Below, piece after piece: positions 102-23,310 of a stretch of DNA of 64,000 nucleotides. The stretch lies in the NCBI GenBank assembly GCA_963735445.1, contig CAVTLC010000048.1:5721-69720 (forward strand), given 5' to 3'. A model generated the notes under the pieces. The model ran no database searches, was not told the DNA's origin, and saw only the letters and a list, made by a program, of their open reading frames with translations. The position numbers were made by a program, and so were the translations under genes. The DNA comes from an uncultured Alphaproteobacteria bacterium. Its GTDB lineage: Bacteria > Pseudomonadota > Alphaproteobacteria > ATCC43930 > CGMCC-115725. Numbering within the stretch: the stretch's first letter is position 1; each line of letters begins with the position of its first letter.

Positions 102-1259
102 TTACCGGCGCTGCCAGGTAAAGACGGAGGAAACTGCGTAGTTCCACACGACGCCGACCGCAGCACCCGCGAGGCCCGACGCCCACCAGGTGTAGTGCTG
201 TGCAAAAGCCGCCGAGGCGATACCGACATTGGCGACCGCGCCGAGGCTGCATACCGCATAAAATGACAGCAGCCCGGTGATAAAGCGCCGGCCGGTAAGA
301 CGCCGGTCGCGATAGGTCAGCGTGTTGTTCAGGACAAAGTTGCTCGTCATCGCAACAAAGGTTGCGAGCGCTTGCGCCGCTGGGAACGAGACGAGCTTTA
401 AGCCGAGATAGAGCGTCGTAAAGTGGACGACCACGCCCGAACCGCCGATCGCGGCAAACGAAACAAAGCGGGCTGGGACATAGCGACCGACCAGCTTGTC
501 GGTCAGCAGCATCAAGTATTCCCAGACGACAAGGCTGTCGAGCTTGCTCTCGCCATGCTGGCGCTGGCCAAACACGTAGGGGATCTCCTTGAAGCGATAG
601 GTGGTGGGGGTCGAGGCAAAGAGATCGAGCAATATCTTGAACCCCTGCCCCGAAAGACGTCTGACCGCCTGCTCGAAAGCCGGCCGGGTCAGCATAAAGA
701 ACCCGCTCATCGGATCGGCCAGATGGGCGGCGACAACCAGCCGTGCGAGGCGCGTCGCGACATCGCTAATCGTCGCCCGGCGGCGATCCCACTCGACGAT
801 CCCGCCACCGAGGGTATGTCGGCTGCCGATCACCACATCGAGGTTCTCTGTCTTGAGCGCCGCGAGCATCCGCGGCAGCAGGGTCTCGTCGTGCTGCAGA
901 TCGGCGTCGATCACCGCGAGATAAGGGGCGCTACTCGCAAGCATTCCCTCGATGACCGCGGTCGACAGGCCGCGGCGGCCAATCCGCTGTAAACAGCGGA
1001 TTCGCGCGTTCTCCGCGGCGAGGGCGCGCACGATCTCGGCGGTGCCGTCGGGCGAATCATCGTCGACAAAGACCACCTCCCAATCGATCCCGCACAAAGC
1101 CGCGTCGAGGCGTGCAAGCAGCGGCTCGATATTGTCGCGCTCGTTAAAGGTCGGCACCACGACCGTGAGTTCGGCGCCCCGTCGCGACAGCTGCGGCTCG
1201 GGAGCCGCGGCCTCGGCCAGCGCCGCGGTCTCGTCATTGAATAGCGATTGCGAGTGCAT
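102..1259 (-). CDS. GT2 polyprenol-phosphate glycosyltransferase (DPM1/GtrB/ArnC-like) fused to a C-terminal GtrA-like membrane domain
   Basis: 385-aa ORF. GT-A motifs VVVPTFNERDNIEPLL, VVFVDDDSPDGT and AVIDADLQHD. The last ~120 aa form about 4 hydrophobic helices typical of GtrA-family domains. Confidence 0.85.
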   Translation of the reverse strand: MHSQSLFNDETAALAEAAAPEPQLSRRGAELTVVVPTFNERDNIEPLLARLDAALCGIDWEVVFVDDDSPDGTAEIVRALAAENARIRCLQRIGRRGLSTAVIEGMLASSAPYLAVIDADLQHDETLLPRMLAALKTENLDVVIGSRHTLGGGIVEWDRRRATISDVATRLARLVVAAHLADPMSGFFMLTRPAFEQAVRRLSGQGFKILLDLFASTPTTYRFKEIPYVFGQRQHGESKLDSLVVWEYLMLLTDKLVGRYVPARFVSFAAIGGSGVVVHFTTLYLGLKLVSFPAAQALATFVAMTSNFVLNNTLTYRDRRLTGRRFITGLLSFYAVCSLGAVANVGIASAAFAQHYTWWASGLAGAAVGVVWNYAVSSVFTWQRR

Positions 1260-2023
1260 CGGCCCCTGCGAAGGTAATCAACTGGGATTGGCTAGCGTCA
1301 GCCGACCAATTTGGTCCCCGATAAGGTATCGTGCCGGAAGGTGGCGCCGACTAGAAGCACTTATAGCCGGCACACTTTAAGCCTTTCTGCAAAGATAGCT
1401 GAGGCGAGCATGGATCGCAGCGAGCCCGCTCGTGGTTGTCGCGCTCCGTCTTATCCCGGGAATTGCCGCCAACGGCGAATCGGGTCCACGTGGTAGAATG
1501 GCCCACGCTCTAAAAAACTGCGAACTGGTTCCTGATCTGGGTGAAGCCGCTGGTTTCGGGCCTCGGATCACGTTGAGCCGCCTCTTTCGACGCCTCCCGC
1601 CCACTCCAGAGCGCGACCAGCATTGCAGAACGTCGATTATCGCCGCGCTTCAAGCCTACGGCCTGGAGGTCAGGGCATGTCAGCTTCAGCAAAACTCAGC
1701 TTAACAGTGGAGCCACGGATCAAAGGACTTCAACTGGGAAATTATATAGTTTAATGAGGAGGTGCGTCCGGCTAGCGGCCGGCCTTGTCTTGCGTTGACT
1801 GCACTTCGACCACTCCAACCTCTTCGCCCGGTACCGAACCCTTTCTGCAAGGATTGACTTCTCAGCTTTGTCCGCTGCGGCACCTACGGTAGCCCGACCG
1901 CGACGACTGAGGGCGTATTCGAATATCCCGATGAGCAGCTTCTGCACGGGAACGGAGCAGCGCAACGGGTCTGGAACTGAGACGCCAAAATTGCTCGGGC
2001 ACCTCTCGTAAAGTGAGCAAATC

Positions 2024-3313
2024 ATGACAGTCATTGATGCGGCCAGGCCGAAATTAACGAGCGCCAAGCTCTATACGTTTATGCTCGTGGCCTACGCCAT
2101 GGCGGTGCTCGTCCGCATGCCGGATATCTTGATTAAACGCCGCTTCTGGGCTGAAGAAGGTACGGTCCATTTCTATACCTCCTGGAATAAACCCTGGTAT
2201 GATGCGCTGTTTTCCGTTCATTTCGATAATCTAAATCTTACGGCTAACCTCGCCACAGTGCTGGCGGTCCATCTCGTTCCATTGGAGTTCGCGCCGTTAG
2301 TCACCACCGGCGTGGCTTTATTAGTCCAACTTTGTCCCGCCTTTCTGCTCATGACGGCGAACGTTGAATGGTTGCGGCATCGAATAACTCTTGCGCTCGC
2401 GCTGCTCCTCTTGCTCGCCTGCAACAACACTGGTGAGGTCTGGCTAACCTCGATCCACACCCAGTTTCTTTTCGGTCTCTGTACGGCTCTCATCCTGGCC
2501 CTCCCTACCGTCGACGGATGGTTGGGCGCGTTCCGGGGAGGGCTTGTGGTGCTGGGAGGACTAACCGGGTTGGCGAGTATTCCGCTCACACCATTGTTCT
2601 TTGTCCGCGCATGGTTCGACCGTTCACGTGCTCGCCTCATCCAAGGCGGCCTCCTCGCTGCTTTTGGCGGAGTGCAAGTGGCGATGCTCGAGCTACATTC
2701 TGACCCCGCCCGCTATGTCGGGATTGGACCGAAATTGCTCATTCTTGTGGTGTACATTAAGCACTTGATTGAACCGCTATTCGGGCGCGGCCAAACAGCC
2801 AGAATAGCCGGCACGCTGGCCGAAAGGGTCGCCAGCGGCGGACCCCTATGGCCGGAAATCACGATTACTTTGATCGCCGTGCTCGTGATCGTGGTCGCGG
2901 CCTGGAAAACAGCCGACCCCGTTGTACGTTGGTTGCTGGTGGGTGGGGCAATGCTGGTGGTCTTCTCCTATTTTGGATCAACGGGAGGTCCCCGTATTTA
3001 CCTGCTGGGAGTTGGCTTTGGTGGCCGCTACGAATACGCGCCTGGCGTGCTGTTCGGGCTAACCGTGCTGGGGATCTCGAAACGAAGCGAGGGATGGCTC
3101 AAGACTATCTCAACGGCATTAGTAATCTGGGTCATCGCCATTGGGGTGCGCGACTATTTTTGGGTGGATCGGGGCCTCCGCACGGGTTCGACGTGGACGA
3201 CAGAAATCAGTCGATGGCGAGCTGATCCAACTTATCGCGTGCAATTTTGGCCAGAAGGCCCTGGTTCTCGCTCGCAACTCGGCAACCCGCATTTGCATGA
3301 CGCCGGAAATTGA
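2024..3313 (+). CDS. polytopic inner-membrane protein, possibly a GT-C-like or Gtr-type periplasmic glycosyltransferase
   Basis: 429-aa ORF made almost entirely of hydrophobic segments, with one N-terminal loop (RRFWAEEGTVHFY). Divergent from the GT2-GtrA gene. I recognise no soluble domain. Confidence 0.6.
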   Translation: MTVIDAARPKLTSAKLYTFMLVAYAMAVLVRMPDILIKRRFWAEEGTVHFYTSWNKPWYDALFSVHFDNLNLTANLATVLAVHLVPLEFAPLVTTGVALLVQLCPAFLLMTANVEWLRHRITLALALLLLLACNNTGEVWLTSIHTQFLFGLCTALILALPTVDGWLGAFRGGLVVLGGLTGLASIPLTPLFFVRAWFDRSRARLIQGGLLAAFGGVQVAMLELHSDPARYVGIGPKLLILVVYIKHLIEPLFGRGQTARIAGTLAERVASGGPLWPEITITLIAVLVIVVAAWKTADPVVRWLLVGGAMLVVFSYFGSTGGPRIYLLGVGFGGRYEYAPGVLFGLTVLGISKRSEGWLKTISTALVIWVIAIGVRDYFWVDRGLRTGSTWTTEISRWRADPTYRVQFWPEGPGSRSQLGNPHLHDAGN

Positions 3314-5173: not shown

Positions 5174-6562
5174 TCAATCGTTGGAGACGTCCGGGTCCCA
5201 GCGGCCGAACACCCCGATGCATCCGAACGGGCAGCCAACGATCGCGTTGTTCGCCGGCATCGGCACAAACACCCAATTATTGGCCGCATTGGCGGCGACC
5301 GAGTGCGATGTTCCGCTCGGGTGCCCCGGCGGCGGGCCGAGCAGCGGCGAGACCCCCGGCACATTGAAGGTGGGCACGATCTGGTCGAGGTACTGGCTCG
5401 AGGCATCGATCACGCCGAGCAGTCCGGCGCCTTGATCGGTCGTCGAGAGCGCGCCGGTCGTCCCCTTTATCGGGTGGGGCGAGTAGGGCGCGTTCGAGGA
5501 GCCGGTATAGAAGTGATTGTCGCCGGAATTGTACCAAACTTCGTCCGACGATCCGACGCCCGGCACGAATGTATACGCGCCGTTGGTGGCCATGATGACC
5601 TGCGCGGGGCTGGCGGTATAATAATCGGTAGGCGTCCAGACATTCCCGATTTGGTCGTAAACGGTGTTGCAGCCGATCAGGAACGTCTCGTTCGGACCCA
5701 AGGAGAGCCCGGCTGGCCCGCAAACCGGCACTAGGAACTCGGCATCGGCGAGACCGGTTTTCGGATTGAGACGATAGATCGCTCCGGTCGGGCCCGGCGC
5801 CGCGGTCGTGCCTGAAACCGAGGGGACGGCGACGTAAAAGCGTTGGGTTCCCGGATCCCAAATCGGCTGCTCGATGCCATTGGTGACATAGCTAAAGACG
5901 ATCTGGCTGCCTTTTGTCAGCGTGCAATTGGTTCCGACATTAATAAAGGTGACGAACGGGGGATCGTCGGCGTTGTTTGCGACGGCCAGAATCCGGTCTT
6001 GCGGGTCGAAAGCCATTTCGTCAGCCCGGTTTACACCACCGGTCTTGAGATCGCTGACCTGCGCACCCGATGGCAGCGCGAAAGAGACAACGCGGCTCGG
6101 CCCGTCGCCGGCAAAGAGACAGGTTCCCGATCCGTCGGTCGTAACCCCGTTTGGACCAGAAATATTGTTGTTGACGGCGGTCCCGGCTGCGTTGAGCTTC
6201 ACCCCGGCAAAACGCGGCGATGCGGTGATCTGCCTGACAAAGACCCCGGTACTGGCATCGACATCGTCGACCGCGGCGTTCGACCGATCGCCGAGGTAGT
6301 AATGGTGGTTCGTTTGGTCGACCCAGCTGATATCAAACCCGTACATGCCATTGGTCGCGTTTGTGGGGGCTACCGGGACCGGGACCGTAAACAGCAGTCG
6401 CACCGGACCCGTGGTTTCCTGAGTAGCGCCCTGCGCCCAGGCGCTGGCCGCACCGAGCAGCAAGACCGGGGCGGCCGCCGCGATCGCCGCCCGCGCGCGG
6501 CCCTGCTTTTTGACGAAACTGCATAAATGCTTTAAGCGCCGAAACATCGATCGTCCTCCCAC
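5174..6562 (-). CDS. exported beta-propeller-like protein of unknown function
   Basis: 462-aa ORF. N-terminal signal peptide (AAAPVLLLGAASAWAQG). Gly/Asn/Thr/Val-rich repeats consistent with a beta-propeller. Family not recognised. Confidence 0.65.
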   Translation of the reverse strand: MGGRSMFRRLKHLCSFVKKQGRARAAIAAAAPVLLLGAASAWAQGATQETTGPVRLLFTVPVPVAPTNATNGMYGFDISWVDQTNHHYYLGDRSNAAVDDVDASTGVFVRQITASPRFAGVKLNAAGTAVNNNISGPNGVTTDGSGTCLFAGDGPSRVVSFALPSGAQVSDLKTGGVNRADEMAFDPQDRILAVANNADDPPFVTFINVGTNCTLTKGSQIVFSYVTNGIEQPIWDPGTQRFYVAVPSVSGTTAAPGPTGAIYRLNPKTGLADAEFLVPVCGPAGLSLGPNETFLIGCNTVYDQIGNVWTPTDYYTASPAQVIMATNGAYTFVPGVGSSDEVWYNSGDNHFYTGSSNAPYSPHPIKGTTGALSTTDQGAGLLGVIDASSQYLDQIVPTFNVPGVSPLLGPPPGHPSGTSHSVAANAANNWVFVPMPANNAIVGCPFGCIGVFGRWDPDVSND

Positions 6563-7047: not shown

Positions 7048-9153
7048 TTATTTGGCTAAATGCTCGCTGCTCTCTGTCTGCTGGTTCAGACGATGCGTTG
7101 CGAACGTGGGAAGACGTCGCAACTCGGTGGTGACTTTTCTTATCGGGGCCGTGAGGCGCCAACTTCTCGAACATTTGAGCTCGTCTATCGCCCGCGTCAA
7201 CGACGCTACCTCTTTCTCGCGCTCGGCGAGCCGCAACGCAAATTCGGCCCGTTCTTTCACGATCGTCTCGATCTCGCGCTCGCGCTCGGACAGCCGCTCG
7301 GCGCGGAAACGCGCGTTGCCTGCGGCGCGAATGCTGTCGGCTGCCTCACACAGCAAATTGAGCGCCATTCGAGCCTCAGCCGAGGGCAGCAGCGGCTTCG
7401 CGTCCAACGCGCGGGCAAAATCCGCCACCGCCCCCACCGGGTTGTCCTGGCGGGACCGCGCCACGCCGCGCTGGGCAAACGCACGTGCCACGGTCGCGGG
7501 TTCTAGCTCGGTAAATTCAAGTTCGGGCGGCAGTTTGTTGGTCGCGGCGAGAATTCGATCAAATACCGCCTCGGCGCCGGCGCTGTCACCCGCGATTAGC
7601 GCGGCGATGCCGTCGTTCAGCACGGCCTGCCAGTAAATCGCGGTTTGCGCCACGACCCCTAACCGCATCGCCCCGGCGATCGCGACGTATGCCGCGCGAT
7701 AAAGACGGCGCGCGCCAGCTGGGTCGCCGCGCCCGTTCAGCTGCAGCATGCCGACAAAGTGCAAGCTGAAGGGCAGCCAGTAAGGAAGCTTGACAGGCCA
7801 ATCGGCGAGATCAGTGACCTCTGCGAGGAGGGCCGGGACCCGTTCCGGCTCGGCAAAACTCAACCTGTAGTCTTGCTGCAACAGCTCCTCGGCGGTCGCA
7901 AACACCGCTTCTGCGCGCGGCCAATCTCCCCGTGATACGTAGTGATCGAGCAGGCGGTAGACGGCGCCGTGCCGGACATCGGAGCGCAAAGGCTCGCGAT
8001 CCGCCGCCAGCGCTTCGAGATACGTGGCGTAGGCCGCATAATCCGGTTCGAGGGTCGCCTCCGTTACAATCGGATCATCGCTCGCAAACGCGATCAGCCG
8101 ATGCCCGAAGGGGATAATTTTTGTATGCGCAAAACCCGCCCCGTGAAGTGCGGCGCGCAACGCATCAGCGCTGAAGATCTGCCGATGAAACCCGGGACAA
8201 AGCGCCGACATGATCACAATCGCCGGAGCGCTGTGGCCGGGCGCAACGCACCCGGCATCCGGAGTGGTCAGGGCCAACACACCGCACGGCTGCAGATGAC
8301 CGCGCAACATGCGCAGAAAGCGCGCCGGATCTTCGACGTGCTCGATCACCTCGGAACAATAGAGCAGATCTGCGCGCATATTTTCAGGTAGCGGCGCATC
8401 GCTCAGATAGGCCGGCAGGATCTCGACACCGAGGGCGCGCGCTCCGTCCTGCGCATACGCCGACGGATCGAGCCCGAGCGATCGCGCTCCAAATATGCGG
8501 CGTGCGAAGTCGACCGTGTAACCAAAGCCGCATCCAGCATCGACAAAACTCTGAACGGGTCGCAATCGATGCACCGCCACCAGCGGCCGTATCATGAATT
8601 CGATCCCGGCCCAGAACTGGGCGTGCAGGCGGGCGTAATTGGCGTTTCCGAAATCTTCTTCGTATCTCGGTTGAATGAAGGGATGCGGGAACACGCAGCC
8701 GCAATCCGGGCAACCGTAAAAATTGAGAGCCTGACTGACGCTCGCACCGCCATCGGATGCGTCGAGATCCCAAGAACATCTGACCTTGAAGGGTTTCGGC
8801 CCGAAGGCATCGCAGACCGGGCAGACGGTCTCGACCGGCTCCTTGAGCCCCCAGCGCAACAGTCCCGGAGCGGCGGGAGCTGCTTCGGCGACCGAGGGTG
8901 TTGCCGCCGCCGGACGCTCGCCGGCGTACATGACGGTTGCGGCCTCCATCAGCAGCCGGTGAGCATGATTGCGGGCACCCTCGGTTGCGCTCGGCTTTGC
9001 CATGAAATCGGCAAAGGCGCCGATCGCCTCCGGATAATGACCGAGCTGCAGCATCGCCACTGCCCGTTCAAACGCGACGCGCGCCGCGATCAAAGGAGGC
9101 GCGAACTCCCAAATCGCCGCCAATCTCGCGCGGGCGCGCGGAAATCGTGTCAA
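7048..9153 (-). CDS. class I SAM-dependent methyltransferase with Cys4 zinc ribbon, helical (TPR-like) region and C-terminal coiled coil
   Basis: Zinc ribbon CPVCDAFG...CPDCGCVF. SAM motif I VDAGCGFGYT, then LLYCSEVIEHVEDP. C-terminal heptad-rich stretch REREIETIVKERAEFALRLAEREKEVASLTRAIDELK followed by SRSWRLTAPIRK. The ORF start overlaps the upstream paralog by 86 nt; an internal ATG at 9054 would remove the overlap. Confidence 0.8.
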   Translation of the reverse strand: MTRFPRARARLAAIWEFAPPLIAARVAFERAVAMLQLGHYPEAIGAFADFMAKPSATEGARNHAHRLLMEAATVMYAGERPAAATPSVAEAAPAAPGLLRWGLKEPVETVCPVCDAFGPKPFKVRCSWDLDASDGGASVSQALNFYGCPDCGCVFPHPFIQPRYEEDFGNANYARLHAQFWAGIEFMIRPLVAVHRLRPVQSFVDAGCGFGYTVDFARRIFGARSLGLDPSAYAQDGARALGVEILPAYLSDAPLPENMRADLLYCSEVIEHVEDPARFLRMLRGHLQPCGVLALTTPDAGCVAPGHSAPAIVIMSALCPGFHRQIFSADALRAALHGAGFAHTKIIPFGHRLIAFASDDPIVTEATLEPDYAAYATYLEALAADREPLRSDVRHGAVYRLLDHYVSRGDWPRAEAVFATAEELLQQDYRLSFAEPERVPALLAEVTDLADWPVKLPYWLPFSLHFVGMLQLNGRGDPAGARRLYRAAYVAIAGAMRLGVVAQTAIYWQAVLNDGIAALIAGDSAGAEAVFDRILAATNKLPPELEFTELEPATVARAFAQRGVARSRQDNPVGAVADFARALDAKPLLPSAEARMALNLLCEAADSIRAAGNARFRAERLSEREREIETIVKERAEFALRLAEREKEVASLTRAIDELKCSRSWRLTAPIRKVTTELRRLPTFATHRLNQQTESSEHLAK

Positions 9154-10459
9154 AGACCGCGATGGCCTCTTCCCGTCGCGCGGCCGCCAAGAGCGCGCAG
9201 CCGTGTTCCATAGCGGCGCGCCATACCAGCGAGGCAGCCTCTTGGCTGTGCTCCGGGGCGATGGCTACCGCGTGCTTCAGCACCTCTAAGGACGAAGCGA
9301 AAAGATCAACGGGATCGCGTGACCCGTCACCGTTGGCGCGCTCAGCCATGGCCCAGTAAAACAAAAATGGCCCGAGGCAAAAGGGTGCTGTGTCGCAATA
9401 CTCCGAGAGGTCGCGTGCAGCCAATACGCGCTCGGCGACGGCAGCGGTGTCGAGCGGGTCGTAGCCGTAGGCCTGTTGGACGAGCGTCGCGAACGCCTCC
9501 GCGTGCGGCAATGCCTGCTGCGTTTGGCCGGCATTGACCAGCTCCTTGGCCGCCCGGAACCGGAAACCCAGCGCAAGGTCGATCGGCTGATCCCGCAGTT
9601 CGGCACGCTGCAAGACATAATCACGATATCGCCTGCTCGGCACCTCCCTGGCGGGCCAGACGCGCAGCACCGCTTCGGTGGCAAACGCAACCAGACGCTC
9701 ATTTTCCGCCTCCACCGATACATCGGTAAACCCGGCCGCGCGGAGCAAAGTGTCCAGGGCAGCTGCGGAAAAGATGAGCTTGTGACCCCCCGGCGAAAGG
9801 GCCGCGAGCAACAATGTCGGATCGCTCTCGGGGCGCACGAATTCCGCCCGCGGGGTTGTCAGGACGAGCGTCCCTCCGGGCGTTAGATGAGCGCGCAGTT
9901 CAGCGATGAAAGCGGCCGGATCAGGCACATGCTCAACGACTTCGGAGGACAGTACGATGTCAAAGCGCTTGTCGCCCAGTTCGGCGACATCGGTCAGCAA
10001 CGCCGTGTAAATCGGCGCTGCGAGTAGATCACGTCCCAAGCGGCCATACAGGGAGGGCTCGACCCCGGCGACGGCGGCCCCGGTCATTCTCCGCCAATAA
10101 TCGAGCGTAAACCCGAAACCACAGCGGACATCGAGGAGACTGGGGGTGACGCCATCGGTTCGAACCCGTTCGATCGGCAGCACCATCGAGTCGATGCTGG
10201 CGCCGACGTGCAGGTAGTGGCGCCAGTGGTAAGGGTCGAGTTCGTCCTGGTCGGCATATTCGTTAAAGTGTTCGGTCATCACGTTCAGACTACCGCAGGC
10301 ATTGCAGCGGGAATAGCTGACAAGCTCACCGAGGTCGTAAGGGTTCGGAGCGGTGAGCACGCGTTCTTGGTGGCCGACGACACCGCATGCCCGACAATAC
10401 GCCTCGCTCACAATTTCCTTATTGCGGTACCAGGTCACCAGCGATCGGAATGTGTCCAC
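9068..10459 (-). CDS. class I SAM-dependent methyltransferase with N-terminal zinc ribbon and C-terminal helical domain (paralog of 7048..9153)
   Basis: Zinc ribbon CRACG...CNACGS. SAM motif I LDVRCGFGFT, then IVLSSEVVEHVPDP and GGTLVLTTP. Domain order matches the downstream paralog, but the coiled-coil tail is missing. Confidence 0.8.
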   Translation of the reverse strand: MDTFRSLVTWYRNKEIVSEAYCRACGVVGHQERVLTAPNPYDLGELVSYSRCNACGSLNVMTEHFNEYADQDELDPYHWRHYLHVGASIDSMVLPIERVRTDGVTPSLLDVRCGFGFTLDYWRRMTGAAVAGVEPSLYGRLGRDLLAAPIYTALLTDVAELGDKRFDIVLSSEVVEHVPDPAAFIAELRAHLTPGGTLVLTTPRAEFVRPESDPTLLLAALSPGGHKLIFSAAALDTLLRAAGFTDVSVEAENERLVAFATEAVLRVWPAREVPSRRYRDYVLQRAELRDQPIDLALGFRFRAAKELVNAGQTQQALPHAEAFATLVQQAYGYDPLDTAAVAERVLAARDLSEYCDTAPFCLGPFLFYWAMAERANGDGSRDPVDLFASSLEVLKHAVAIAPEHSQEAASLVWRAAMEHGCALLAAARREEAIAVFDTISARPREIGGDLGVRASFDRGARRV

Positions 10460-10866: not shown

Positions 10867-12024
10867 TTATATCACGCCGATTCTGGCAAGCATCGCCGTG
10901 GGCGAACGCAGGTCGCGCAGCGACCCGCGCGCCCGAAAATATCCGAGGATCTCGCGTTCGTACGCCGCGTCCTCGCCGACCCATTCGCCGACAACCTCGT
11001 CGATCTGCGTGACAAGATATTGGCCGCGATAAACCAAGTCCTTCTTCAAGAACGGAAAACCGGTCTCTCGCAGCAGAATCAGGTTGGCGGCGTTCATCGT
11101 GTTCGATCTGCCGAGGCTTTCAGTAACGTAATGCCGCAGAAAACTGCGCATCGGCGCATTCTCGCCGGCTTCTGCAAACGTAATCTGCTGAATCTTGTCG
11201 CGCAAGGTTTCGTATTCGAGCGGACCCAACGCGCCCAGCAACCGGTCGACGGTCTCGCTCAGCGACCCGTGGAGCATGATGTCGATGACGCCGCCCTGGG
11301 TGTACAAAAGGCGCGGCGTGATGCCCATTCCGATACAATAGCGAGAGAGCCCGATTTCTCCGTGCTTGATGCAATGCAGGCGATAGGAGAGCGGCCGATA
11401 ATTTTGCCAGTATTCCTGGAAGGCGGGGTCGGCAAAGAGCCGGCCGGAGACCGCGAAAAACCAGCTCTGCAGATGGTAAACCGGGGAAAAGGTCTCGGTG
11501 ACGCCGATAAAGTCGTCATCGAGCTGCCTGAGGCGTTCGAGCGATTGCCGCAGCGCCGATGGCCGGACAAAAATGCTGTCGTTACAATATATGACTTGTC
11601 CGATGTCGTGGTCTTCACCATCCATTTTAGAGAGCGTTTGGGTCCCCCATTTGTAGCCGCCGAAATCACGCCCGCCGCGCGGCCGCTCGATCACGCTGTG
11701 ACAGTAAGGCAAAAAATTGCTGGAGATTTCGGGTGATAAATCACCGTTGTTGACCAGGATCACATTATAGCCGGCTTCTTTCAGACACGACAGGAATGCG
11801 AGCAAGTTCTGAGAGACGCGCCTTCCCTGGGCAATCGCAAAGATGCACCACAGCCCGGTCGGCTGGGTCGCAGCGAGATGAACCCGAGAGCTAGCCGCCG
11901 ATTTCCACCGCGGCCTTTCAATCAGAAGGAAGACAAGCAGATAATATATCAGAAGGATGCCCCTCAACGGCAATTCGACACCAAGCCTCAGACAGAAGTA
12001 GACAACGCGTAGGAACGCCGTCAT
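10867..12024 (-). CDS. rhamnan-synthesis-F (RgpF) family glycosyltransferase-like protein
   Basis: 385-aa ORF with an N-terminal TM region. Motifs RGGRDFGGYKWG, IYCNDSIFVRPS, FIGVTETFSPVYHLQSWFFAVS and HGEIGLSRY match my recollection of RgpF-family conserved blocks. Confidence 0.7.
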   Translation of the reverse strand: MTAFLRVVYFCLRLGVELPLRGILLIYYLLVFLLIERPRWKSAASSRVHLAATQPTGLWCIFAIAQGRRVSQNLLAFLSCLKEAGYNVILVNNGDLSPEISSNFLPYCHSVIERPRGGRDFGGYKWGTQTLSKMDGEDHDIGQVIYCNDSIFVRPSALRQSLERLRQLDDDFIGVTETFSPVYHLQSWFFAVSGRLFADPAFQEYWQNYRPLSYRLHCIKHGEIGLSRYCIGMGITPRLLYTQGGVIDIMLHGSLSETVDRLLGALGPLEYETLRDKIQQITFAEAGENAPMRSFLRHYVTESLGRSNTMNAANLILLRETGFPFLKKDLVYRGQYLVTQIDEVVGEWVGEDAAYEREILGYFRARGSLRDLRSPTAMLARIGVI

Positions 12025-12993: not shown

Positions 12994-13848
12994 GTGACAC
13001 AACTGGAAGCTGTTTCTGAGCCTGCACCCGAGACAATTATTGATTTCCCGGCACCGCCAACCCGCGTCGGTTCCGCTGTGGCAGACCTCCGCGATGGTTT
13101 TGAGCAGAATTGGCTGTGGATTCGGCTGGCGCACCAGGATATGCGGCTGCGCTATCGTGGTTCGATGCTCGGACCGTTTTGGCAGACGATCACGACCGTT
13201 GTTTTGATCGGCTCGATGGGTTTCATCTACGCCAAGCTGTTCCATGTCGAACTCAAAGACTACATGCCGCTGCTGACTGTCGGGCTGATACTGTGGAATT
13301 TCGTTGCCGGAATGATCACCGAAGGCTGCGGCACTTTCGACGCAGTGCGCGGGCTAATCCAGCAGGTCAAGCTGCCGTATTCGCTGCACGCCTTTCGCCT
13401 CGTCTATCGCAATTTCCTAATCCTGGCTCACAGCTTTGTCATCATCCCGATCGTACTGATCATCTTCCCGCACCCGATCCAATGGCTTCGGCTGGTTGAG
13501 ATCGTCCCCGGTATGGTGTTGGCAATGATCAATGGGGTTGCCATCAGCCTACTGTTGGGCTCGATTTGCGCGCGCTTCCGCGACGTCCCGCCGATCGTCG
13601 CCAGTATCGTTCAGGTCGTGTTCTTTGTGACGCCGATCGTCTGGCCGCCTAGCGCGCTGGGCTCCAACCAGTGGTGGGCGGTGCTGAACCCGCTTTATAC
13701 AGTGATCGACGTGATGCGCTCGCCGATGCTCGGGATGCCGACAGCGCCGCATTCCTGGGCAATCCTGATAATCGTCACACTGGTCAATTGTGCGGTCAGT
13801 TTCATGTTCTTCAGTCGCTTCCGCTCGCGCATCGCCTTTTGGGTTTGA
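12994..13848 (+). CDS. wzm: ABC-2 type polysaccharide export permease (Wzm/TagG/KpsM family)
   Basis: 284-aa ORF with a GTG start. Family N-terminal signature LAHQDMRLRYRGSMLGPFWQTI and about 6 TM segments. Lies directly upstream of the ATPase gene. Confidence 0.85.
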   Translation: MTQLEAVSEPAPETIIDFPAPPTRVGSAVADLRDGFEQNWLWIRLAHQDMRLRYRGSMLGPFWQTITTVVLIGSMGFIYAKLFHVELKDYMPLLTVGLILWNFVAGMITEGCGTFDAVRGLIQQVKLPYSLHAFRLVYRNFLILAHSFVIIPIVLIIFPHPIQWLRLVEIVPGMVLAMINGVAISLLLGSICARFRDVPPIVASIVQVVFFVTPIVWPPSALGSNQWWAVLNPLYTVIDVMRSPMLGMPTAPHSWAILIIVTLVNCAVSFMFFSRFRSRIAFWV

Positions 13849-13869: not shown

Positions 13870-14655
13870 GTGTCGTTTGTGCGTCTAGAAGACGTATCGG
13901 TGGAGTTTCCGATATATCAGGGCAGCAGCCGCTCGCTGAAAAAAGTGCTGCTTGCCTCATCCACTCGCGGGAATTTGGCGCGCGATGCCCGAGACCGCGT
14001 AAACGTCCGCGCCCTGAGCGGGATCAACTTTGAACTGCGCAGTGGTGATCGGTTTGGCCTCGTCGGTGCAAACGGCGCCGGGAAGACGACATTACTCAAA
14101 GTGCTCGCCGGCGTATTCGAGCCCACCGGCGGTAGGATAATTTCGTTCGGCCAAGTCACATCTCTGCTCGATACCAGCGTCGGGTTGAACATCGATGCGA
14201 CCGGGCACGAGAATATCATTCTGCGTGGCATGTACATGGGGATACACCCGCGCGAAATGGCGGAGCGCGCGGCATCGATCGCCGAGTTTACCGAGCTTGG
14301 CGACTACCTTGACATGCCGGTGCGAACATATTCCGCGGGTATGATGATTCGCTTGGCCTTTGCTATTTCAACGTGCGTTGCCCCCGATATCCTGATCATG
14401 GACGAGTGGCTCACCGCCGGCGATGCTCGGTTCCTCGCTAAGGCGCAGCGCCGCATCGAAGAGTTCGTTCGCTATTCGAGCATCCTGGTGCTCGCCTCCC
14501 ATTCGATGCAGCTGGTGGAACAATGGTGCAGTCGCGGGGTGTTGCTGCATCACGGCCGAATATTGACGATTGGCCCGATCAAGGAGATTGTCGCTGCCTA
14601 TCAAGAGTTGACCCAGGAGCTCACCGCTATGGAGGCTGTGGCGGCGGCCGAGTGA
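13870..14655 (+). CDS. wzt: polysaccharide export ABC transporter ATP-binding protein (Wzt/TagH/KpsT family), NBD only
   Basis: 261 aa. Walker A GANGAGKTTLLKVLAG, signature YSAGMMIRLAF, Walker B ILIMDEW. No C-terminal carbohydrate-binding extension. Confidence 0.9.
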   Translation: MSFVRLEDVSVEFPIYQGSSRSLKKVLLASSTRGNLARDARDRVNVRALSGINFELRSGDRFGLVGANGAGKTTLLKVLAGVFEPTGGRIISFGQVTSLLDTSVGLNIDATGHENIILRGMYMGIHPREMAERAASIAEFTELGDYLDMPVRTYSAGMMIRLAFAISTCVAPDILIMDEWLTAGDARFLAKAQRRIEEFVRYSSILVLASHSMQLVEQWCSRGVLLHHGRILTIGPIKEIVAAYQELTQELTAMEAVAAAE

Positions 14656-15173: not shown

Positions 15174-15832
15174 TTGGCTGAAATCAACCTGCTGCGCCGA
15201 TATCCGCGCGCAAAGCGCAACATCGGAATGCGAACAGTCGCACAAAGCGCTGAGAACATCCGTATCGCTCGTGAGTATGGACGCGAATATTTCGACGGGT
15301 CGCGCGACACCGGATACGGCGGTTACCGTTATGATGGGCGATGGATCCCGATTGCCGAGGATATAATCGAGCACTTCCGGCTCAAACCGGGCGATCGGGT
15401 GCTCGAGTCGGCTGCGGCAAAGGTTTTCTCGTCAAAGACCTGCTTAAGGTGAGCCAAGGAATTGAGGCTTTCGGGCTCGATATTTCCGAATACGCGTTGA
15501 TGCATTGCGAACCTGAGGTCATCGGCCGGCTGCACCTTGGCGACTGTGTCAAGCTGCCGTTTCCAGACAACAGCTTTGCCGCGACCATCGCGATCAACGT
15601 CGTCCACAATCTTGAACGCGCCGATTGCATTGCGGCTGTCAAGGAGATCGAACGGCTGTCGCCTGGAAGGGCCTACATTCAAGTCGATTCCTATCGCACG
15701 CCGGAGGAAAGGCAGCTTTTTCTCAGTTGGGTTCTAACCGCAAAGACGCATCACGATCCCGTAGGCTGGCGCCAACTGTACGAGGAAGCGGGTTACACGG
15801 GCGATTACTATTGGACAATTATCGAGGCATGA
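15174..15832 (+). pseudogene. class I SAM-dependent methyltransferase with one frameshift (possibly a sequencing artefact)
   Basis: ORFs 15174..15452 and 15341..15832 join as ...KPGDRVLE|VGCGKGFLVKDL... The DNA reads ctcgag-tcggctgc where gag gtc ggc tgc is expected, so one G is missing near 15406. Confidence 0.8.
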
Positions 15833-15845: not shown

Positions 15846-16667
15846 ATGACGCCAACCGGCAACCGGTTCGATACGATACAGGCGCGCGAGCGATGCCGGC
15901 GCTATCGTCGCCGCATCCTCGACATCTCGCAGCAGGTGCAGGCGCTCCATATCGGATCGGCTTATTCCTGCACCGAGATCGTAGACTCCTTTTATCATGG
16001 GCTGATGCGACGTAATCCGGACGGCTCCTCGCCCGACACTTTTTGATGTCGAAAGGGCATGGCTGCATGATCCAGTACGTCATCCTCGAGGAGGACGGGA
16101 TCCTGAGCCGCGCAGATCTCGATGGCTACTGCAAACCGGAAGGACATCTCGGCGTCCACCCCACTATGGCATTCCCGGCATCGCGGCAGCCACCGGATCG
16201 CTCGGCCATGGGCTCTCGATGGCGTGCGGCATGGCACTCGCAGAGCGCGGCCGCAGGACCGGCGGCACAATCTATGCCGTGCTCAGCGATGGCGAAGTAC
16301 AAGAAGGCTCAACCTGGGAAGCCGTACTGATGGCGTCGTCGCTGCGTCTCGACAATCTCGTCGCCGCAATCGACAACAACGATCTGCAGAGCCTCGGTCG
16401 GACGTCGGTAACTCATCCGAGCCTCTATCCGTTGCTCGATAAATTTGCGGCGTTTGGCTGGGAAACAGCAGAGGTCGCGGCCACGACTCGGACGCAATCT
16501 TTTCCGCTGTCGCGAACCGGCGCGGCGGCCGCCCCTTCATGTTGGTTGCAAAGACCACCAAGGGCAAGGGCGTCAGCTATATGGAAAACGTGTCGATCTG
16601 GCATTACCGCTCGCCAACTCCGGACGAATACCGCCGTGCGATTGACGAGTTGGAGACGGCGCGATGA
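15846..16667 (+). pseudogene. transketolase N-terminal (TPP-binding) subunit with three frameshifts
   Basis: The pieces read HIGSAYSCTEIV..., LMSKGHGCMIQYV..., HYGIPGIAAATGSLGHGLSMACGMA...LSDGEVQEGSTWEA... and GHDSDAIFSAV...LVAKTTKGKGVSYMEN. Frame switches lie at a T5 run (about 16040), a C4 run (about 16160) and about 16475. The stop overlaps the next start (ATGA at 16664). Confidence 0.8.
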
Positions 16668-17581
16668 GAAACATGTTCGCCGAAGCGCTGTATCGCGAAG
16701 CGACCCGAAACCCGGACATCTATGTGGTCGTCGCCGACATCTCGCCGGTCGGCAATATGGCGAAGTTTAGTTCGGAGTACCCCGAGCGCTTTATCAATGT
16801 GGGAGTTGCCGAACAGAGCATGATTGGTATCTGCGCCGGGCTCGCCCTCAAAGGCTGCCAGCCCTTCGCCTACACGATTGCCACCTTCTCGCTCTATCGA
16901 CCGTTCGAGATGGTGCGCGACGATCTGTGTTACCAGAACCTGCCGGTGACGGTTGTCGGCATGGGCGCCGGGGTGATTTATTCGGACCATGGCGGGACCC
17001 ATCATGCGATGGAGGACGTCGCAATCGCCGGCGCTATCCCGAATATGCAGATTATTGCGCCATGCGATCCAGCGGAGGTCGCCGAGGCTACGCGATGGTG
17101 CGCCCGTCAAAAAAACGGGCCGGTCTATCTCCGCCTTGGCAAGTCGAACGAACCCGACCTGACCAAGAATGCCGAACCGTGGGTGTTTGGCAAATTGCGC
17201 CGCTTGCGGAGCCGGTAGAGATGTCGCAATCATGTCCTATGGCGTCTTGACCAGCATCGCAACCGATCTTGCCGATCGCTTTGCAGCGGCGGGAAAATCG
17301 GCATCGGTATTCTCCTGCCACACCGTGAAGCCGCTCGACCGTGACGGGATTATCGCCGCAATGAAAGATCATGACCACGTCGTCGTGATCGAGGAGCATG
17401 TGCCGCAGGGCGGTCTCGCGGCGCAGACGAAGCAGTTGGCCTGGGACATCGGGGCACATTGCCGGCTCGACACCTTCACGCTGCAGGACCGCTTTACCAT
17501 AATTTCGGCCGTCATCCCGACATGCTGGCGGCGCACGGGCTCAGCCTCTCGGAGATTGTGAAGCGGGTCGGGCTGGACTAG
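16664..17581 (+). pseudogene. transketolase C-terminal (pyrimidine-binding) subunit with two frameshifts
   Basis: FINVGVAEQSMIGICAGLALKG...YSDHGGTHHAMEDVAI..., then AGRDVAIMSYGVLT..., then HNFGRHPDMLAAHGLSLSEIVKRVGLD*. Frame switches near 17205 and 17500. Confidence 0.8.
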
Positions 17582-19056: not shown

Positions 19057-20934
19057 ATGAACCGGCAGCCGGCAAGAGTTATTGTGTATGCGTGGGGCAA
19101 GTCCTACGTCGATCGAATGCTCAATAATGCGGTGGCCTCACTCCTTGCGCCTGGTAATCTGCCTGCTCTAGCCGGGTTCTTTGATTGCACATTGATTGTG
19201 GTGACAGAAGAAAAGCTGTTTGGCTATGTCAATTCACATCATTTGATTCGATGGACTAAATCTCTGTGCCCGGTTCGGCTGATTTCGCTTGACGATCTTA
19301 TCGGCGAGCCTTGGCAATATGGAATTTCGCTGGCCCATGCTCTGTTTCGCGGCTTCTCCGAGCTCGGGGCCGCAATGACCGAGACGTATCTGTTGTTTCT
19401 GAATGCCGATTTTGTTTTAGCCGATGGCTGCTACGAGCGTCTAATCCCGCATATGGAACGCGGCGAATCGGTCCTGCTGTCGCCAAGCTATTGCGTGGTC
19501 GAGGAGGAGGTTGAGCCAATCCTCAGGGAGATAAGCGACAGCAGAAGGCGCGCTTTGGTGCTCCCGCCACGCCAACTCGCTCGCGTCATCATCGATCATC
19601 AGCACAACACTATTCGCGCCAAAACAATCAATCAACAACAAGTCCATTTCGAATATATGGACCAAGCATATTGGAGGATCGATGACGATACGATCATCGC
19701 TCATCAGATGCCAATATCTGTGGTAGCGATGCGGCCGGAAACGGCGCTTACCGATATTAATACCTTTTGGGATTGGGGCATTGTCTATGAGTTCTGCCCG
19801 TCGCGGCGGCTCACAGTGCTCAACGATTCCGATGAATTCCTGATGCTGGAACTGCGGAACGAGGCCGCACATCGCGACCTCGTGCGGCCCGGGCCGACCA
19901 ATCCGCAGGCCGCCGCTGCGGGAATGCGCGGCTATATCACGCAATACCAGCTCGACAACGCTCGCTTTGGCCTGACCTTGCATGCCCAGACGCTGCCGTC
20001 TGCGATCGACGAGGCGCGAGCGAGTTTGCGTTTGTTTTCTGATGAGCTCCTGCGGCAACTGCAGGGCCATGTGCCCGACCACCTTAATCACCCGCAATGG
20101 ATTTACCATCGCTGGCATCTGTCGCGACACATCGCGGCGAGCAAGTTGCGCAACGAGATCGCCTCGCTCGTGGAGAGCAGCTACAAAGCGCAGGCCCGGA
20201 CCGCAAAGATGCAGACCGGCGCGCTGATGATGCTAGCCGCGACGAAGGCCTCGCGGTTTGCCGCGATCCGCGGCCAACGCGGCGATGGTATCGCCGATAT
20301 GCCCGCTGCTGCTGCCGTCGAGCAAGGCCGGGGAGCCGCTGACGCAGTGCTCGCGATTGCCAAGGAATTCGTCCGTGATGCGGAGCTTCTAGAGCCGACT
20401 TTCGAGGAATGGGCCCGATCGACGGGCCATTATCAGGTGCACGAGGCGTCACTGCGCCGGCAACTCCGCCGGATCGAACAGCGCCGAGTTCTGACCTGGG
20501 CTGATTTGGGGTTTTGCGGGGTGCCTGGGACTCGACCCACGAGCGGCGAATCCGAGGGACCGGAACCGGCAATTTGGACGCGCAGGCGATGGATCAAGAT
20601 TCTAAAGGCAGCCCGTGCGTGGACGCTCGGCTCCGTCCCACATACCCGTCGGTGGCATCCCTTGCACTTTATCTGTAAGGACATCTCCAGGGTGCTCGAC
20701 GGCGCCGTTCACGCCAGCGGACCGCTTCTTTTCGTAAGCGGAGACAACAGCATCGCCACCCGCTGGGTAGATCCCGCGCGGCGCCGGCATTTACGCGTCT
20801 CCGCGGCCGGTGTACTGGAGGGGGCGTTGGATGGGCTCGCCAGCTCGGTTCAGTTGATTTCTGCTTTGTCGAGCTTGATAGCGAGAGCTTCCCGCGCATC
20901 CGCGATGTTCATGGCATTTTGGCTGACCGTGTAA
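19057..20934 (+). CDS. large protein with an uncharacterised GT-A-like N-terminal module (paralog of the N-terminus of 23311..26274) and a helical C-terminal half
   Basis: 625-aa ORF. Blocks shared with the paralog: WG.SY...SLLAPGNLP, LFLNADFVLADG, RGESVLLSPSYCVVEEE, HNTIRAKTIN, YWRI, EFCPSRRLTVLNDSDEFLMLEL. I recognise no characterised family. Confidence 0.7.
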   Translation: MNRQPARVIVYAWGKSYVDRMLNNAVASLLAPGNLPALAGFFDCTLIVVTEEKLFGYVNSHHLIRWTKSLCPVRLISLDDLIGEPWQYGISLAHALFRGFSELGAAMTETYLLFLNADFVLADGCYERLIPHMERGESVLLSPSYCVVEEEVEPILREISDSRRRALVLPPRQLARVIIDHQHNTIRAKTINQQQVHFEYMDQAYWRIDDDTIIAHQMPISVVAMRPETALTDINTFWDWGIVYEFCPSRRLTVLNDSDEFLMLELRNEAAHRDLVRPGPTNPQAAAAGMRGYITQYQLDNARFGLTLHAQTLPSAIDEARASLRLFSDELLRQLQGHVPDHLNHPQWIYHRWHLSRHIAASKLRNEIASLVESSYKAQARTAKMQTGALMMLAATKASRFAAIRGQRGDGIADMPAAAAVEQGRGAADAVLAIAKEFVRDAELLEPTFEEWARSTGHYQVHEASLRRQLRRIEQRRVLTWADLGFCGVPGTRPTSGESEGPEPAIWTRRRWIKILKAARAWTLGSVPHTRRWHPLHFICKDISRVLDGAVHASGPLLFVSGDNSIATRWVDPARRRHLRVSAAGVLEGALDGLASSVQLISALSSLIARASRASAMFMAFWLTV

Positions 20935-23273: not shown

Positions 23274-23310
23274 CGGGACATATTTCAATCAGGGCCTAGA
23301 ACGAAGCGCG

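What the first reader, a model, noticed from the sequence alone, without database searches (positions are those of the whole stretch)
7048..10459. Tandem zinc-ribbon methyltransferase paralogs; one carries a coiled coil and an SRSWRLTAPIRK tail (WbdD-like terminator or ruler hypothesis)
Seen: two adjacent minus-strand genes share the order Cys4 ribbon, class I SAM methyltransferase domain, helical repeat region. Only the downstream 701-aa copy adds about 60 aa of heptad-rich sequence (REREIETIVKERAEFALRLAEREKEVASLTRAIDELK) followed by SRSWRLTAPIRK. Established: in the E. coli O9a ABC-transporter pathway, chain length is set by WbdD. WbdD is a kinase/methyltransferase whose coiled coil acts as a molecular ruler, and it caps the non-reducing end. 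From memory (not checked here), a coiled coil followed by an S-x-S-W-R-x-T-x-P motif recurs at the C-termini of glycan-locus enzymes in several proteobacteria. Inference: these genes may methyl-cap the glycan and regulate its length, with sub-functionalised paralogs.
Basis: partly seen in the sequence, partly recalled or inferred. Interest (0 to 1): 0.7.

Follow-up and report, generated by a model that had tools for sequence, protein, structure and literature searches.

The report
Stalk-mounted double methyltransferase for glycan capping
The two "paralogous genes" are one 1136-residue gene split by a single extra base; it encodes two sugar-type methyltransferase modules on a coiled-coil stalk whose base carries a widespread motif also present in E. 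coli WbdD, so it is probably a new variant of the enzymes that cap and measure O-antigen chains.

Summary
The ORFs, their shared domain order, the heptad segment and SRSWRLTAPIRK are all real. However, the two ORFs are one gene. Deleting one T at 9104/9105 gives a 1136-aa ORF that is 99.8% identical, without gaps, to an intact protein from another assembly. At least two other genes in the window are also frame-broken, so an assembly error is likely.

Each half is a Cys4 zinc ribbon, a class I methyltransferase and a TPR domain. The ribbon-methyltransferase core resembles the NDP-sugar C-methyltransferases TcaB9 and KijD1, not WbdD.

The C-terminus is a 70-residue helix with heptads near its end, then S-x-S-W-R-x-T-A-P-x-R, then a cationic amphipathic helix. 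This tail defines a large family (604 clusters) attached to methyltransferases, glycosyltransferases and sulfotransferases. When the motif is internal, glycosyltransferase domains follow it. E. coli WbdD has SRSWRMT at residues 592-598, at the base of its ruler (31.5 bits; shuffles reach 6.9).

The locus and its orthologues keep RgpF-like, Wzm and Wzt genes. Wzt lacks the carbohydrate-binding module found in all characterised terminator systems.

Verdict: a WbdD-format, membrane-tethered glycan methyltransferase and a likely chain terminator, but termination is unproven. It is a new variant of a known kind.

The parts
7048..10459 (-). One gene. It encodes a 1136-aa protein once the extra T at 9104/9105 is removed, with the layout [Zn ribbon - class I MT - TPR] x2 - coiled coil - SRSWRxTAPxR - amphipathic helix.
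9104..9105 (-). TT where relatives have a single T. This one-base insertion splits the gene into 463-aa and 701-aa ORFs. The source annotation calls the second as 668 aa, starting at ATG 9052-9054.
10295..10396 (-). Cys4 zinc ribbon of the N-terminal module (CRAC...CNAC).
9716..10153 (-). Class I SAM methyltransferase domain of the N-terminal module. SAM motif I reads DVRCGFG (R codon at 10124-10126) where most relatives have DVGCGFG.
9106..9652 (-). Helical (TPR-like) domain of the N-terminal module, assigned by homology to the C-terminal module. Boundaries are approximate.
8701..8823 (-). Cys4 zinc ribbon of the C-terminal module (CPVC...CPDC).
8128..8565 (-). Class I SAM methyltransferase domain of the C-terminal module, with an intact DAGCGFG motif I.
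7402..8040 (-). TPR-like helical repeat domain of the C-terminal module.
7174..7383 (-). Continuous 70-residue helix (about 105 A). The last ~40 residues have hydrophobic a/d heptad positions, giving a predicted coiled-coil stalk. Its length varies between orthologues.
7135..7170 (-). SRSWRLTAPIRK, the junction motif at the base of the stalk (family consensus S-[RT]-S-W-R-[ILV]-T-A-P-[LIM]-R).
7111..7161 (-). Cationic amphipathic helix WRLTAPIRKVTTELRRL (muH 0.57 over an 18-residue window, net charge +4), the predicted membrane-interface anchor.
10867..12024 (-). RgpF-like glycosyltransferase. It is the syntenic neighbour in all orthologous loci and a candidate polymerase partner.
12994..13848 (+). 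Wzm, the ABC-2 permease.
13870..14655 (+). Wzt, the nucleotide-binding subunit. At 261 aa it has no C-terminal carbohydrate-binding module.

Best explanation
One 1136-aa peripheral membrane enzyme of an ABC-transporter-dependent polysaccharide (O-antigen-type) pathway.

Two diverged catalytic modules sit in tandem at the N-terminal, membrane-distal end. Each is a Zn ribbon, a class I SAM methyltransferase and a TPR domain.

The C-terminus is a coiled-coil stalk. [quoted passage not shown] This is the same format as E. coli WbdD, which carries the same junction.

Inferred mechanism: the stalk oligomerises and holds the methyltransferases away from the membrane. When the undecaprenyl-PP-linked chain is long enough to reach them, one or two hydroxyls of the non-reducing terminal sugar are O-methylated. 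That blocks further extension and so limits chain length. The TPR domains bind partner proteins or the chain.

What is shown: the gene structure, the domain folds, the tail family and its presence in WbdD, the domain order around the motif, and the locus context. What is inferred: oligomerisation, membrane binding, a polymer rather than nucleotide-sugar substrate, terminal rather than internal methylation, and the ruler effect.
For: Single gene.

Domains: Pfam methyltransferase hits in both halves. AF2 models with pLDDT 82 and 86 show ribbon, Rossmann, TPR, a 70-residue helix, a break at CSRS, then a helix starting at the motif W. TPR fold matches.

Tail family: 604 clusters, with 144 of the 149 new hits among the best 150 carrying the core. 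Heptad hydrophobics at -30 to -6 are in fixed register. S-3, S-1 and R+7 are 97-99% conserved although not used for selection. The downstream helix is almost free of acidic residues; muH 0.57.

Partners of the tail: methyltransferases 13, GT2 10, GT1/GT4 7, RgpF 4 and sulfotransferase 3, out of 56 proteins. In 9 of 9 proteins with an internal motif, the glycosyltransferase domains follow the motif. P0134 is MT - coil - motif - WbsX GT.

WbdD: SRSWRMT at residues 592-598; 31.5 bits against 6.9 for the best shuffle; best pairwise HSP. WbdD's coiled coil is an experimentally established ruler, and its C-terminal region binds the membrane and WbdA (PMC5082667; PMC3447403; PMC6286764). A coiled coil is described as a characteristic marker of terminators, and the O4 terminator has a TPR-like bundle before its coil (PMC11231755).

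Context: RgpF-like, Wzm and Wzt are syntenic in all orthologous loci. Three independent motif carriers lie in glycan loci just after methyltransferase ORFs, one of them with a Wzt that has a CBM. Stalk length varies from 59 to 93 aa among orthologues.
Against: Wzt has no CBM, here or in any orthologous locus. Every characterised terminator system has one, and CBM-less transporters such as Klebsiella O2a set chain length by coupling synthesis to export, without a cap.

The well-heptad part of the stalk is only about 40 residues (about 60 A), against about 200 A in WbdD.

The catalytic core resembles nucleotide-sugar C-methyltransferases, not WbdD.

The N-module motif I is G->R in this lineage, which may impair SAM binding.

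No oligomer prediction, substrate or glycan structure is available.
Confidence: 0.5

Rival explanations
1. A membrane-tethered decorating enzyme rather than a terminator. The modules O-methylate internal repeat-unit residues of the growing lipid-linked glycan. The stalk and tail serve only to scaffold the enzyme in the assembly complex. Chain length is set by coupling of synthesis to export, as in CBM-less O2a-type systems.
For: Wzt lacks a CBM in all orthologous loci. The literature links CBM-less transporters to cap-independent length control. The tail also occurs on many glycosyltransferases and sulfotransferases that need not be terminators. The heptad segment is short.
Against: The order catalytic domain - coil - motif, with glycosyltransferases always on the membrane-proximal side, matches the ruler format. 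The junction is shared with WbdD. Coiled-coil proteins are reported as markers of the termination strategy. An internal decorating enzyme has no evident need to be held away from the membrane.
Confidence: 0.28
2. Nucleotide-sugar C-methyltransferase(s). The modules act like TcaB9, KijD1 or MtmC on NDP-4-keto-6-deoxy sugars to make branched-chain sugar precursors for the polymer.
For: The top Foldseek hits are TcaB9, KijD1 and MtmC (E 1e-10). They are the only PDB proteins that align from the Zn ribbon through the methyltransferase with the module profile (E 2e-8 to 1e-4). The locus also has DegT-like, RmlD-like and transketolase-like sugar-modification genes.
Against: The C-terminal NDP-sugar-binding domain of TcaB9-type enzymes is absent and replaced by TPR repeats. 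Foldseek rmsd is about 14 A and TM about 0.45. Generic methyltransferases score equally on the Rossmann part. A soluble precursor enzyme has no evident need for a coiled-coil membrane tether shared with polymer-acting enzymes.
Confidence: 0.08
3. The T insertion is genuine. The 463-aa N-module is made as a free protein, and the C-module is re-initiated at ATG 9052-9054, 14 nt after the TGA. That gives two separately acting paralogs, or a decaying pseudogene.
For: Both ORFs are otherwise intact. An ATG lies just downstream of the stop. The source annotation and 668 aa. The motif I G->R change in the N-module is shared with P0169 and so is a real lineage change that could signal relaxed constraint.
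Against: A 99.8%-identical gene is intact in an independent assembly. A third assembly is broken at a different place. AnmK and a transketolase subunit are also frame-broken in the same 64 kb. All more distant orthologues are fused. Programmed frameshifting does not fit: a +1 shift is needed, and a -1 slip on T TTG GGA runs into a stop within a few codons.
Confidence: 0.12

Closest known systems
E. coli O9a/O8 and Klebsiella O3/O5 WbdD (chain-terminating methyltransferase, with or without kinase, carrying a coiled-coil molecular ruler)
   Same: N-terminal SAM methyltransferase, then a coiled coil, then an S-R-S-W-R-x-T...R junction, then a cationic amphipathic C-terminal region. It sits in a wzm/wzt locus next to the polymerase genes, as a terminator-only polypeptide.
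   Different: No detectable similarity between the catalytic domains. No kinase. Two methyltransferase modules, each with a Zn ribbon and a TPR domain. The stalk is much shorter. After the motif the C-terminal region is only 37 aa, against about 110 aa in WbdD. The partner Wzt lacks the CBM that WbdD systems need.
Klebsiella pneumoniae O4 ORF7 and O7 ORF6 terminators (Kelly et al. 2024, PMC11231755)
   Same: Coiled-coil terminator proteins with variable module arrangements. O4 ORF7 has a TPR-like bundle directly before the coiled coil. O7 ORF6 is methyltransferase(-kinase) - coil - GT modules, like the motif carrier P0134.
   Different: Those add Kdo or methyl-phosphate and work with CBM-bearing Wzt.
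TcaB9 / KijD1 / MtmC NDP-sugar C-3-methyltransferases
   Same: An N-terminal Cys4 Zn domain fused to a class I SAM methyltransferase. They are the best structural matches and the only full-core sequence-profile matches.
   Different: They are soluble enzymes with a C-terminal NDP-sugar-binding domain. Here that domain is replaced by TPR repeats, and the protein is duplicated and mounted on a coiled-coil tether.
Klebsiella O2a-type CBM-less Wzm/Wzt export systems
   Same: The Wzt is a bare nucleotide-binding subunit. Its best NCBIfam match is the galactan-export Wzt/RfbE model, although below that model's cut-off.
   Different: According to the cited literature, those systems have no coiled-coil terminator. 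This locus pairs such a transporter with a WbdD-format protein.

Membership tests
WbdD-type coiled-coil chain terminator system (ABC-transporter-dependent glycan assembly) | The locus encodes a Wzm/Wzt ABC transporter and glycosyltransferases. | tested here: met
   ABC2_membrane at 12994-13848, ABC_tran at 13870-14655, plus RgpF-like, GT4 and GT2 genes. The synteny is kept in L002-L005.
WbdD-type coiled-coil chain terminator system (ABC-transporter-dependent glycan assembly) | A terminating catalytic domain sits at the membrane-distal end of an extended coiled coil. | tested here: inconclusive
   The methyltransferase modules are N-terminal to a 70-residue predicted helix whose last ~40 residues are heptad-like. 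The family profile shows a fixed a/d register. The oligomeric state was not predicted, and the stalk is far shorter than WbdD's ~200 A.
WbdD-type coiled-coil chain terminator system (ABC-transporter-dependent glycan assembly) | A C-terminal membrane-associating amphipathic region follows the coil. | tested here: met
   By prediction only. WRLTAPIRKVTTELRRL has muH 0.57 (18-residue window) and net charge +4, and the family profile is cationic and acid-free after the motif. The SRSWRxT..R junction is shared with WbdD residues 592-602.
WbdD-type coiled-coil chain terminator system (ABC-transporter-dependent glycan assembly) | Wzt carries a C-terminal carbohydrate-binding module that recognises the cap. 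| tested here: not met
   Wzt is 261 aa. It aligns with E. coli HS Wzt (431 aa) only over residues 1-244. There is no Wzt_C hit. Orthologous loci have 254-263 aa versions.
WbdD-type coiled-coil chain terminator system (ABC-transporter-dependent glycan assembly) | The catalytic domain is homologous to WbdD's methyltransferase or kinase. | tested here: not met
   WbdD is absent from the PDB sequence hits and from the top 50 fold hits. BLASTP finds only the tail.
WbdD-type coiled-coil chain terminator system (ABC-transporter-dependent glycan assembly) | A methyl cap on the non-reducing terminus, with chain length responding to gene loss or to stalk length. | not testable with these tools
   This needs genetics, LPS gels, and NMR or MS.
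TcaB9/KijD1/MtmC NDP-sugar C-methyltransferases | An N-terminal Cys4 zinc domain followed by a class I SAM methyltransferase domain. | tested here: met
   CxxC...CxxC is present in both modules. Foldseek E is 1e-10. The profile alignment spans ribbon plus methyltransferase at E 2e-8.
TcaB9/KijD1/MtmC NDP-sugar C-methyltransferases | A C-terminal NDP-sugar-binding domain (the Methyltransf_14 type, named from memory). | tested here: not met
   No such Pfam hit. The region after the methyltransferase folds as TPR repeats.
Class I SAM-dependent methyltransferases (Pfam Methyltransf_23/11) | A profile match above the gathering score, with an intact GxGxG SAM motif I. | tested here: met
   Both halves score 63-66 bits against a cut-off of 27. 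The C module has DAGCGFG. The N module has DVRCGFG (first G changed to R) in this lineage only, so its activity is uncertain.
Coiled-coil + S-x-S-W-R-x-T-A-P-[LIM]-R tail family (found no description in the papers I could search) | Heptad repeats in fixed register running into S-x-S-W-[RK]-h-T-A-P-h-R, followed by a cationic amphipathic helix. | tested here: met
   The window tail has every conserved position. Its orthologue profile retrieves 604 clusters.

The most novel reading that the evidence does not exclude
S-x-S-W-R-x-T-A-P-L-R, in fixed register with the preceding heptads, may be a so far unrecognised, widely conserved 'stalk-base' element of ruler-type glycan assembly machines, WbdD included. 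In that reading it marks where the coiled coil meets the membrane and the polymerase, and its invariant S, W, T, P and R residues make a specific contact (with lipid carrier, polymerase or transporter) rather than acting as a generic amphipathic anchor. This locus would then be a terminator/ruler that works with a CBM-less exporter, that is, termination without the export checkpoint. That combination is absent from the characterised systems.
Probability: 0.3. Interest if true: 0.7.

Novelty: new variant of a known kind. Interest (0 to 1): 0.5.

Why it matters
Coiled-coil terminators are the accepted way that ABC-transporter-dependent O-antigens and related glycans are made to a set length. [quoted passage not shown]

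The junction motif found here gives a simple sequence marker for the membrane-proximal end of such stalks. It occurs in hundreds of protein clusters and names specific residues to mutate in WbdD: S592, S594, W595, R596, T598 and R602.

The protein itself extends the known formats in two ways. It has two TcaB9-like Zn-ribbon methyltransferase modules with TPR domains on one stalk, and it is paired with a transporter that lacks the cap-reading module. If it does terminate chains, cap-dependent export is not obligatory for the ruler strategy.

It is also a caution for genome scans: apparent tandem paralogs with overlapping frames can be a single gene broken by an assembly indel.

Tried and rejected
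1. Word-indexed homologue searches with the tail gave nothing useful. A1 collected only 37 candidates. The 88-tail profile A5 returned only fragments of 29-69 aa.

2. The search for related loci with the broad alignment A2 failed because it had no conserved stretch. With A4 it found only 3 genome loci, so the organism could not be named. Relatives are annotated as Xanthobacteraceae, Stellaceae or alphaproteobacterial MAGs.

3. A GC3 frame-plot to count frameshifts was not discriminating at 61% GC. I replaced it with Pfam scans of consecutive ORFs.

4. Programmed frameshifting was considered and rejected. Going from the N frame to the C frame needs a +1 shift. The T TTG GGA heptamer would give a -1 slip that hits a stop within a few codons. 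Near-identical relatives simply lack the extra T.

5. A single alpha-helix (E/R/K-rich) spacer instead of a coiled coil was considered. The family-wide a/d hydrophobic register over at least four heptads argues for a coiled coil, but the upstream part of the 70-residue helix could be a single helix.

6. Searching the literature for the motif as a sequence string found nothing relevant. The key non-open-access papers were not held (Hagelueken 2015, King 2014, Mann 2019), so prior description of the motif cannot be excluded.

7. A profile search of PDB sequences with the tail found only generic coiled coils.

8. A search for characterised O-antigen methyltransferases of Rhizobium etli was unproductive.


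Full report
OBSERVATION

The two minus-strand ORFs exist: 9068-10459 (463 aa) and 7048-9153 (701 aa). They are homologous, with 31% identity over 421 aa and E 3e-39. Each has two CxxC pairs, a class I SAM methyltransferase scoring 63-66 bits against a cut-off of 27, and a helical region. Only the downstream ORF carries the heptad-rich helix and SRSWRLTAPIRK (7135-7170). W[RK]x[TS]xP occurs in only one real gene in the window.

IT IS ONE GENE

The ORFs overlap by 86 nt in different frames. The nearest homologues are single proteins of 1093-1130 aa. tblastn places P0001 residues 1-467 in one frame (10459-9080) and 454-1130 in the other (9099-7051).

Against a 92%-identical contig (L001), the only frame-breaking difference is one extra T: GGGAGTTCG in the window, GGGAG-TCG in L001. 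Deleting one T at 9104/9105 gives a 1136-aa ORF. It is 99.8% identical, with no gaps, to P0169, and 98.1% identical to P0171. Both are intact 1136-aa proteins from other assemblies. A third assembly is broken elsewhere, into 685 and 374 aa.

The source contig (71 kb) was annotated as 463 aa plus 668 aa, the latter starting at ATG 9052-9054.

Other genes in the same 64 kb are also frame-broken. AnmK has profile positions 2-236 in one frame and 259-362 in another. The Transket_pyr and Transketolase_C domains of a transketolase subunit are also in different frames. Transketolase_N and a small methyltransferase appear only as truncated fragments.

Programmed frameshifting does not fit. A +1 shift would be needed, and a -1 slip on T TTG GGA reaches a stop. 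I judge an assembly indel about 85% likely. If the insertion is real, it is recent and specific to this strain.

The two halves are not a recent tandem duplication. Stand-alone proteins elsewhere resemble the C module (P0008-P0010, about 50% identity) or the N module (Competibacteraceae loci, 34% against 27%). So the gene is a fusion of two old paralogous module types.

ANATOMY

AlphaFold2 on the C-terminal 668 aa gave pLDDT 82 and pTM 0.74. It shows a beta-hairpin zinc ribbon, a Rossmann methyltransferase, helical repeats, one continuous helix of 70 residues, a break exactly at C-S-R-S, and a second helix that begins at the motif W. A second model of the helical half gave pLDDT 86. Its Foldseek matches are TPR domains (LGN, sNASP, kinesin light chain), at E of about 1e-4 to 1e-3.

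For the full model, the best PDB matches are TcaB9, KijD1 and MtmC. These are NDP-sugar C-3-methyltransferases with an N-terminal Cys4 zinc domain (E 1e-10, but rmsd about 14 A). A profile of the ribbon-methyltransferase core aligns with those three from ribbon to methyltransferase, at E 2e-8 to 1e-4. Generic methyltransferases match only the Rossmann part, and WbdD is not found. The TcaB9-type C-terminal sugar-nucleotide domain is absent.

Motif I is intact in the C module (DAGCGFG). In the N module it reads DVRCGFG in the window, in P0169 and in P0168. P0171 and all more distant relatives have G at that position.

THE TAIL

A profile of seven orthologue tails, searched exhaustively, found 604 cluster representatives at E<=1e-3. 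Of the 149 new hits among the best 150, 144 have W[RK]x[TS]xP.

I derived a position profile from 172 copies of the motif:
- Hydrophobic residues sit at -30, -27, -23, -20, -16, -13, -9 and -6, a 3-4 heptad pattern in fixed register with the motif.
- S-3 is 99% conserved, S-1 97% and R+7 99%. None of these positions was used to select the copies.
- A+4 is 77% and L+6 is 69%.
- After the motif, hydrophobic residues fall at +2, +6, +9 and +13, basic residues at +1, +7, +14 and +15, and there are almost no acidic residues.
- The median distance from the last W to the C-terminus is 23 aa.
- 32 of 149 proteins have two or three copies.

The window helix has muH 0.57 over an 18-residue window and net charge +4.

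Among 56 carriers of at least 300 aa, the attached domains are class I methyltransferases (13), GT2 (10), GT1/GT4 (7), RgpF (4), sulfotransferases (3), WbsX (2) and Glyphos_transf (1). Where the motif is internal, the glycosyltransferase domains lie C-terminal to it in 9 of 9 cases. P0134 is MT - coil - motif - WbsX GT.

Three independent motif fragments sit in glycan loci directly after methyltransferase ORFs. One of those loci has Wzm and a Wzt with Wzt_C.

No solved structure contains the motif. A string search of the literature found nothing relevant.

LINK TO WbdD

I took WbdD from the O9 cluster of E. coli HS. It reads ...QQLRQEIEKIHRSRSWRMTKGYRYLG..., with SRSWRMT at residues 592-598. 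An HMM of the tail family built without WbdD scores it at 31.5 bits at residues 572-602. The best of 2000 shuffles scores 6.9 bits. This junction is also the best BLASTP HSP between WbdD and the window protein.

Published work describes WbdD in these terms:
- It has N-terminal catalytic domains and a trimeric coiled coil of about 200 A.
- Changing the length of that coil changes the modal chain length.
- Its C-terminal region is structurally uncharacterised and binds the membrane and the polymerase WbdA.
(PMC5082667; PMC3447403; PMC6286764; PMC3482155.)

The soluble construct ends at residue 600.

CONTEXT

The gene lies beside an RgpF-like glycosyltransferase, Wzm and Wzt, with GT4 and GT2 genes and sugar-modification genes nearby. 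The dual-methyltransferase / RgpF / Wzm / Wzt arrangement is kept in the loci where flanking DNA is available.

Wzt is 261 aa. It aligns with the 431-aa O9 Wzt only over the nucleotide-binding domain. Its best NCBIfam match is the CBM-less galactan exporter model. It is 254-263 aa in the orthologous loci.

Kelly et al. 2024 (PMC11231755) make three relevant points:
- Every terminated system has a CBM on Wzt.
- A coiled-coil protein is a characteristic marker of the termination strategy.
- The O4 terminator has a TPR-like bundle before its coil.

Stalk length, measured from a conserved anchor to the motif, ranges from 59 to 93 aa among orthologues. Even the 90%-identical P0001 differs by 6 aa there.

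INTERPRETATION

Best supported: a WbdD-format, membrane-tethered glycan methyltransferase, with two Zn-ribbon methyltransferase-TPR modules on a coiled-coil stalk.
- I put the general statement (it acts on the lipid-linked polymer at the membrane, within the assembly complex) at about 0.75.
- I put the specific statement (it methyl-caps the non-reducing end and limits chain length) at about 0.5.

The missing CBM and the short stalk are the main reasons for doubt about the specific statement.

Rivals:
- Internal decoration without termination: 0.28.
- TcaB9-like precursor C-methylation: 0.08.
- A genuinely split pair of genes in this strain: about 0.12 (an overlapping question).

NOVELTY

The kind of system (a coiled-coil terminator) is known. 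The module composition and the pairing with a CBM-less exporter are new variants. The conserved junction motif shared with WbdD appears undescribed in the literature I could search. Key subscription papers were not available, so an earlier description cannot be excluded.

Noticed in passing
window 27718-28885 (+): AnmK (anhydro-MurNAc kinase) is frame-broken. Pfam profile positions 2-236 lie in ORF 27718-28707 and positions 259-362 in the overlapping ORF 28373-28885, which is in another frame.
   Followed up: partly
window 16122-17561 (+): Transketolase-like genes are fragmented. Transketolase_N covers only profile positions 146-219 (16219-16770). Transket_pyr (16664-17218) and Transketolase_C (17169-17561) are in different overlapping frames. 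Together with AnmK this points to an indel-prone assembly.
   Followed up: partly
window 15341-15832 (+): A third, small class I methyltransferase ORF lies downstream of wzt (163 aa, Methyltransf_11 positions 3-86). It may be truncated.
   Followed up: no
window 10124-10126 (-): The first glycine of SAM motif I in the N-terminal module is arginine (DVRCGFG, codon CGC). The change is shared with the near-identical P0169 and P0168 but not with P0171, P0001 or more distant relatives. The N module may have lost SAM binding in this lineage.
   Followed up: partly
window 1732-1944 (+): A degenerate relic of the N-terminus of a Zn-ribbon methyltransferase module. It is 35% identical to P0002 residues 5-74, has lost CxxC and contains an internal stop. 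It lies about 5 kb beyond the 3' end of the intact gene, on the opposite strand, suggesting a past rearrangement in the locus.
   Followed up: partly
window 102-1259 (-) and 2024-3313 (+): A GT2 protein fused to a GtrA-like transmembrane domain lies next to a 429-aa polytopic membrane protein with no Pfam hit. This may be a periplasmic glycan-modification (polyprenyl-phosphate-sugar) system.
   Followed up: no
window 5174-6562 (-): A 462-aa protein with an apparent signal-peptide-like N-terminus and no Pfam or NCBIfam hit lies immediately downstream of the methyltransferase gene. It is conserved at 95.7% identity in the same position in L001.
   Followed up: no
window 23218-26274 (+) and 19057-20934 (+): A 1018-aa protein whose only annotation is a TIGR04440 glycosyltransferase domain at residues 640-843, and a 625-aa protein with no hits at all. 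Both lie in the glycan locus and are candidates for further assembly components.
   Followed up: no
proteins P0019-P0165: 32 of 149 tail-family proteins carry two or three copies of coil + SxSWRxTAPLR, 45-120 residues apart. This is not obviously compatible with a single membrane-proximal stalk base and remains unexplained.
   Followed up: no
L001 361-727: In the 92%-identical contig L001, the orthologue of the RgpF-like gene appears frame-shifted, with HSPs in two frames. In the window it is intact. Indel noise therefore affects both assemblies.
   Followed up: no
window ~7270-7300 (-), against L001 4267-4308: An in-frame 18-nt (6-aa) length difference lies inside the stalk helix between proteins that are 90% identical. 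Across orthologues the stalk spans 59-93 aa, so its length evolves quickly.
   Followed up: partly
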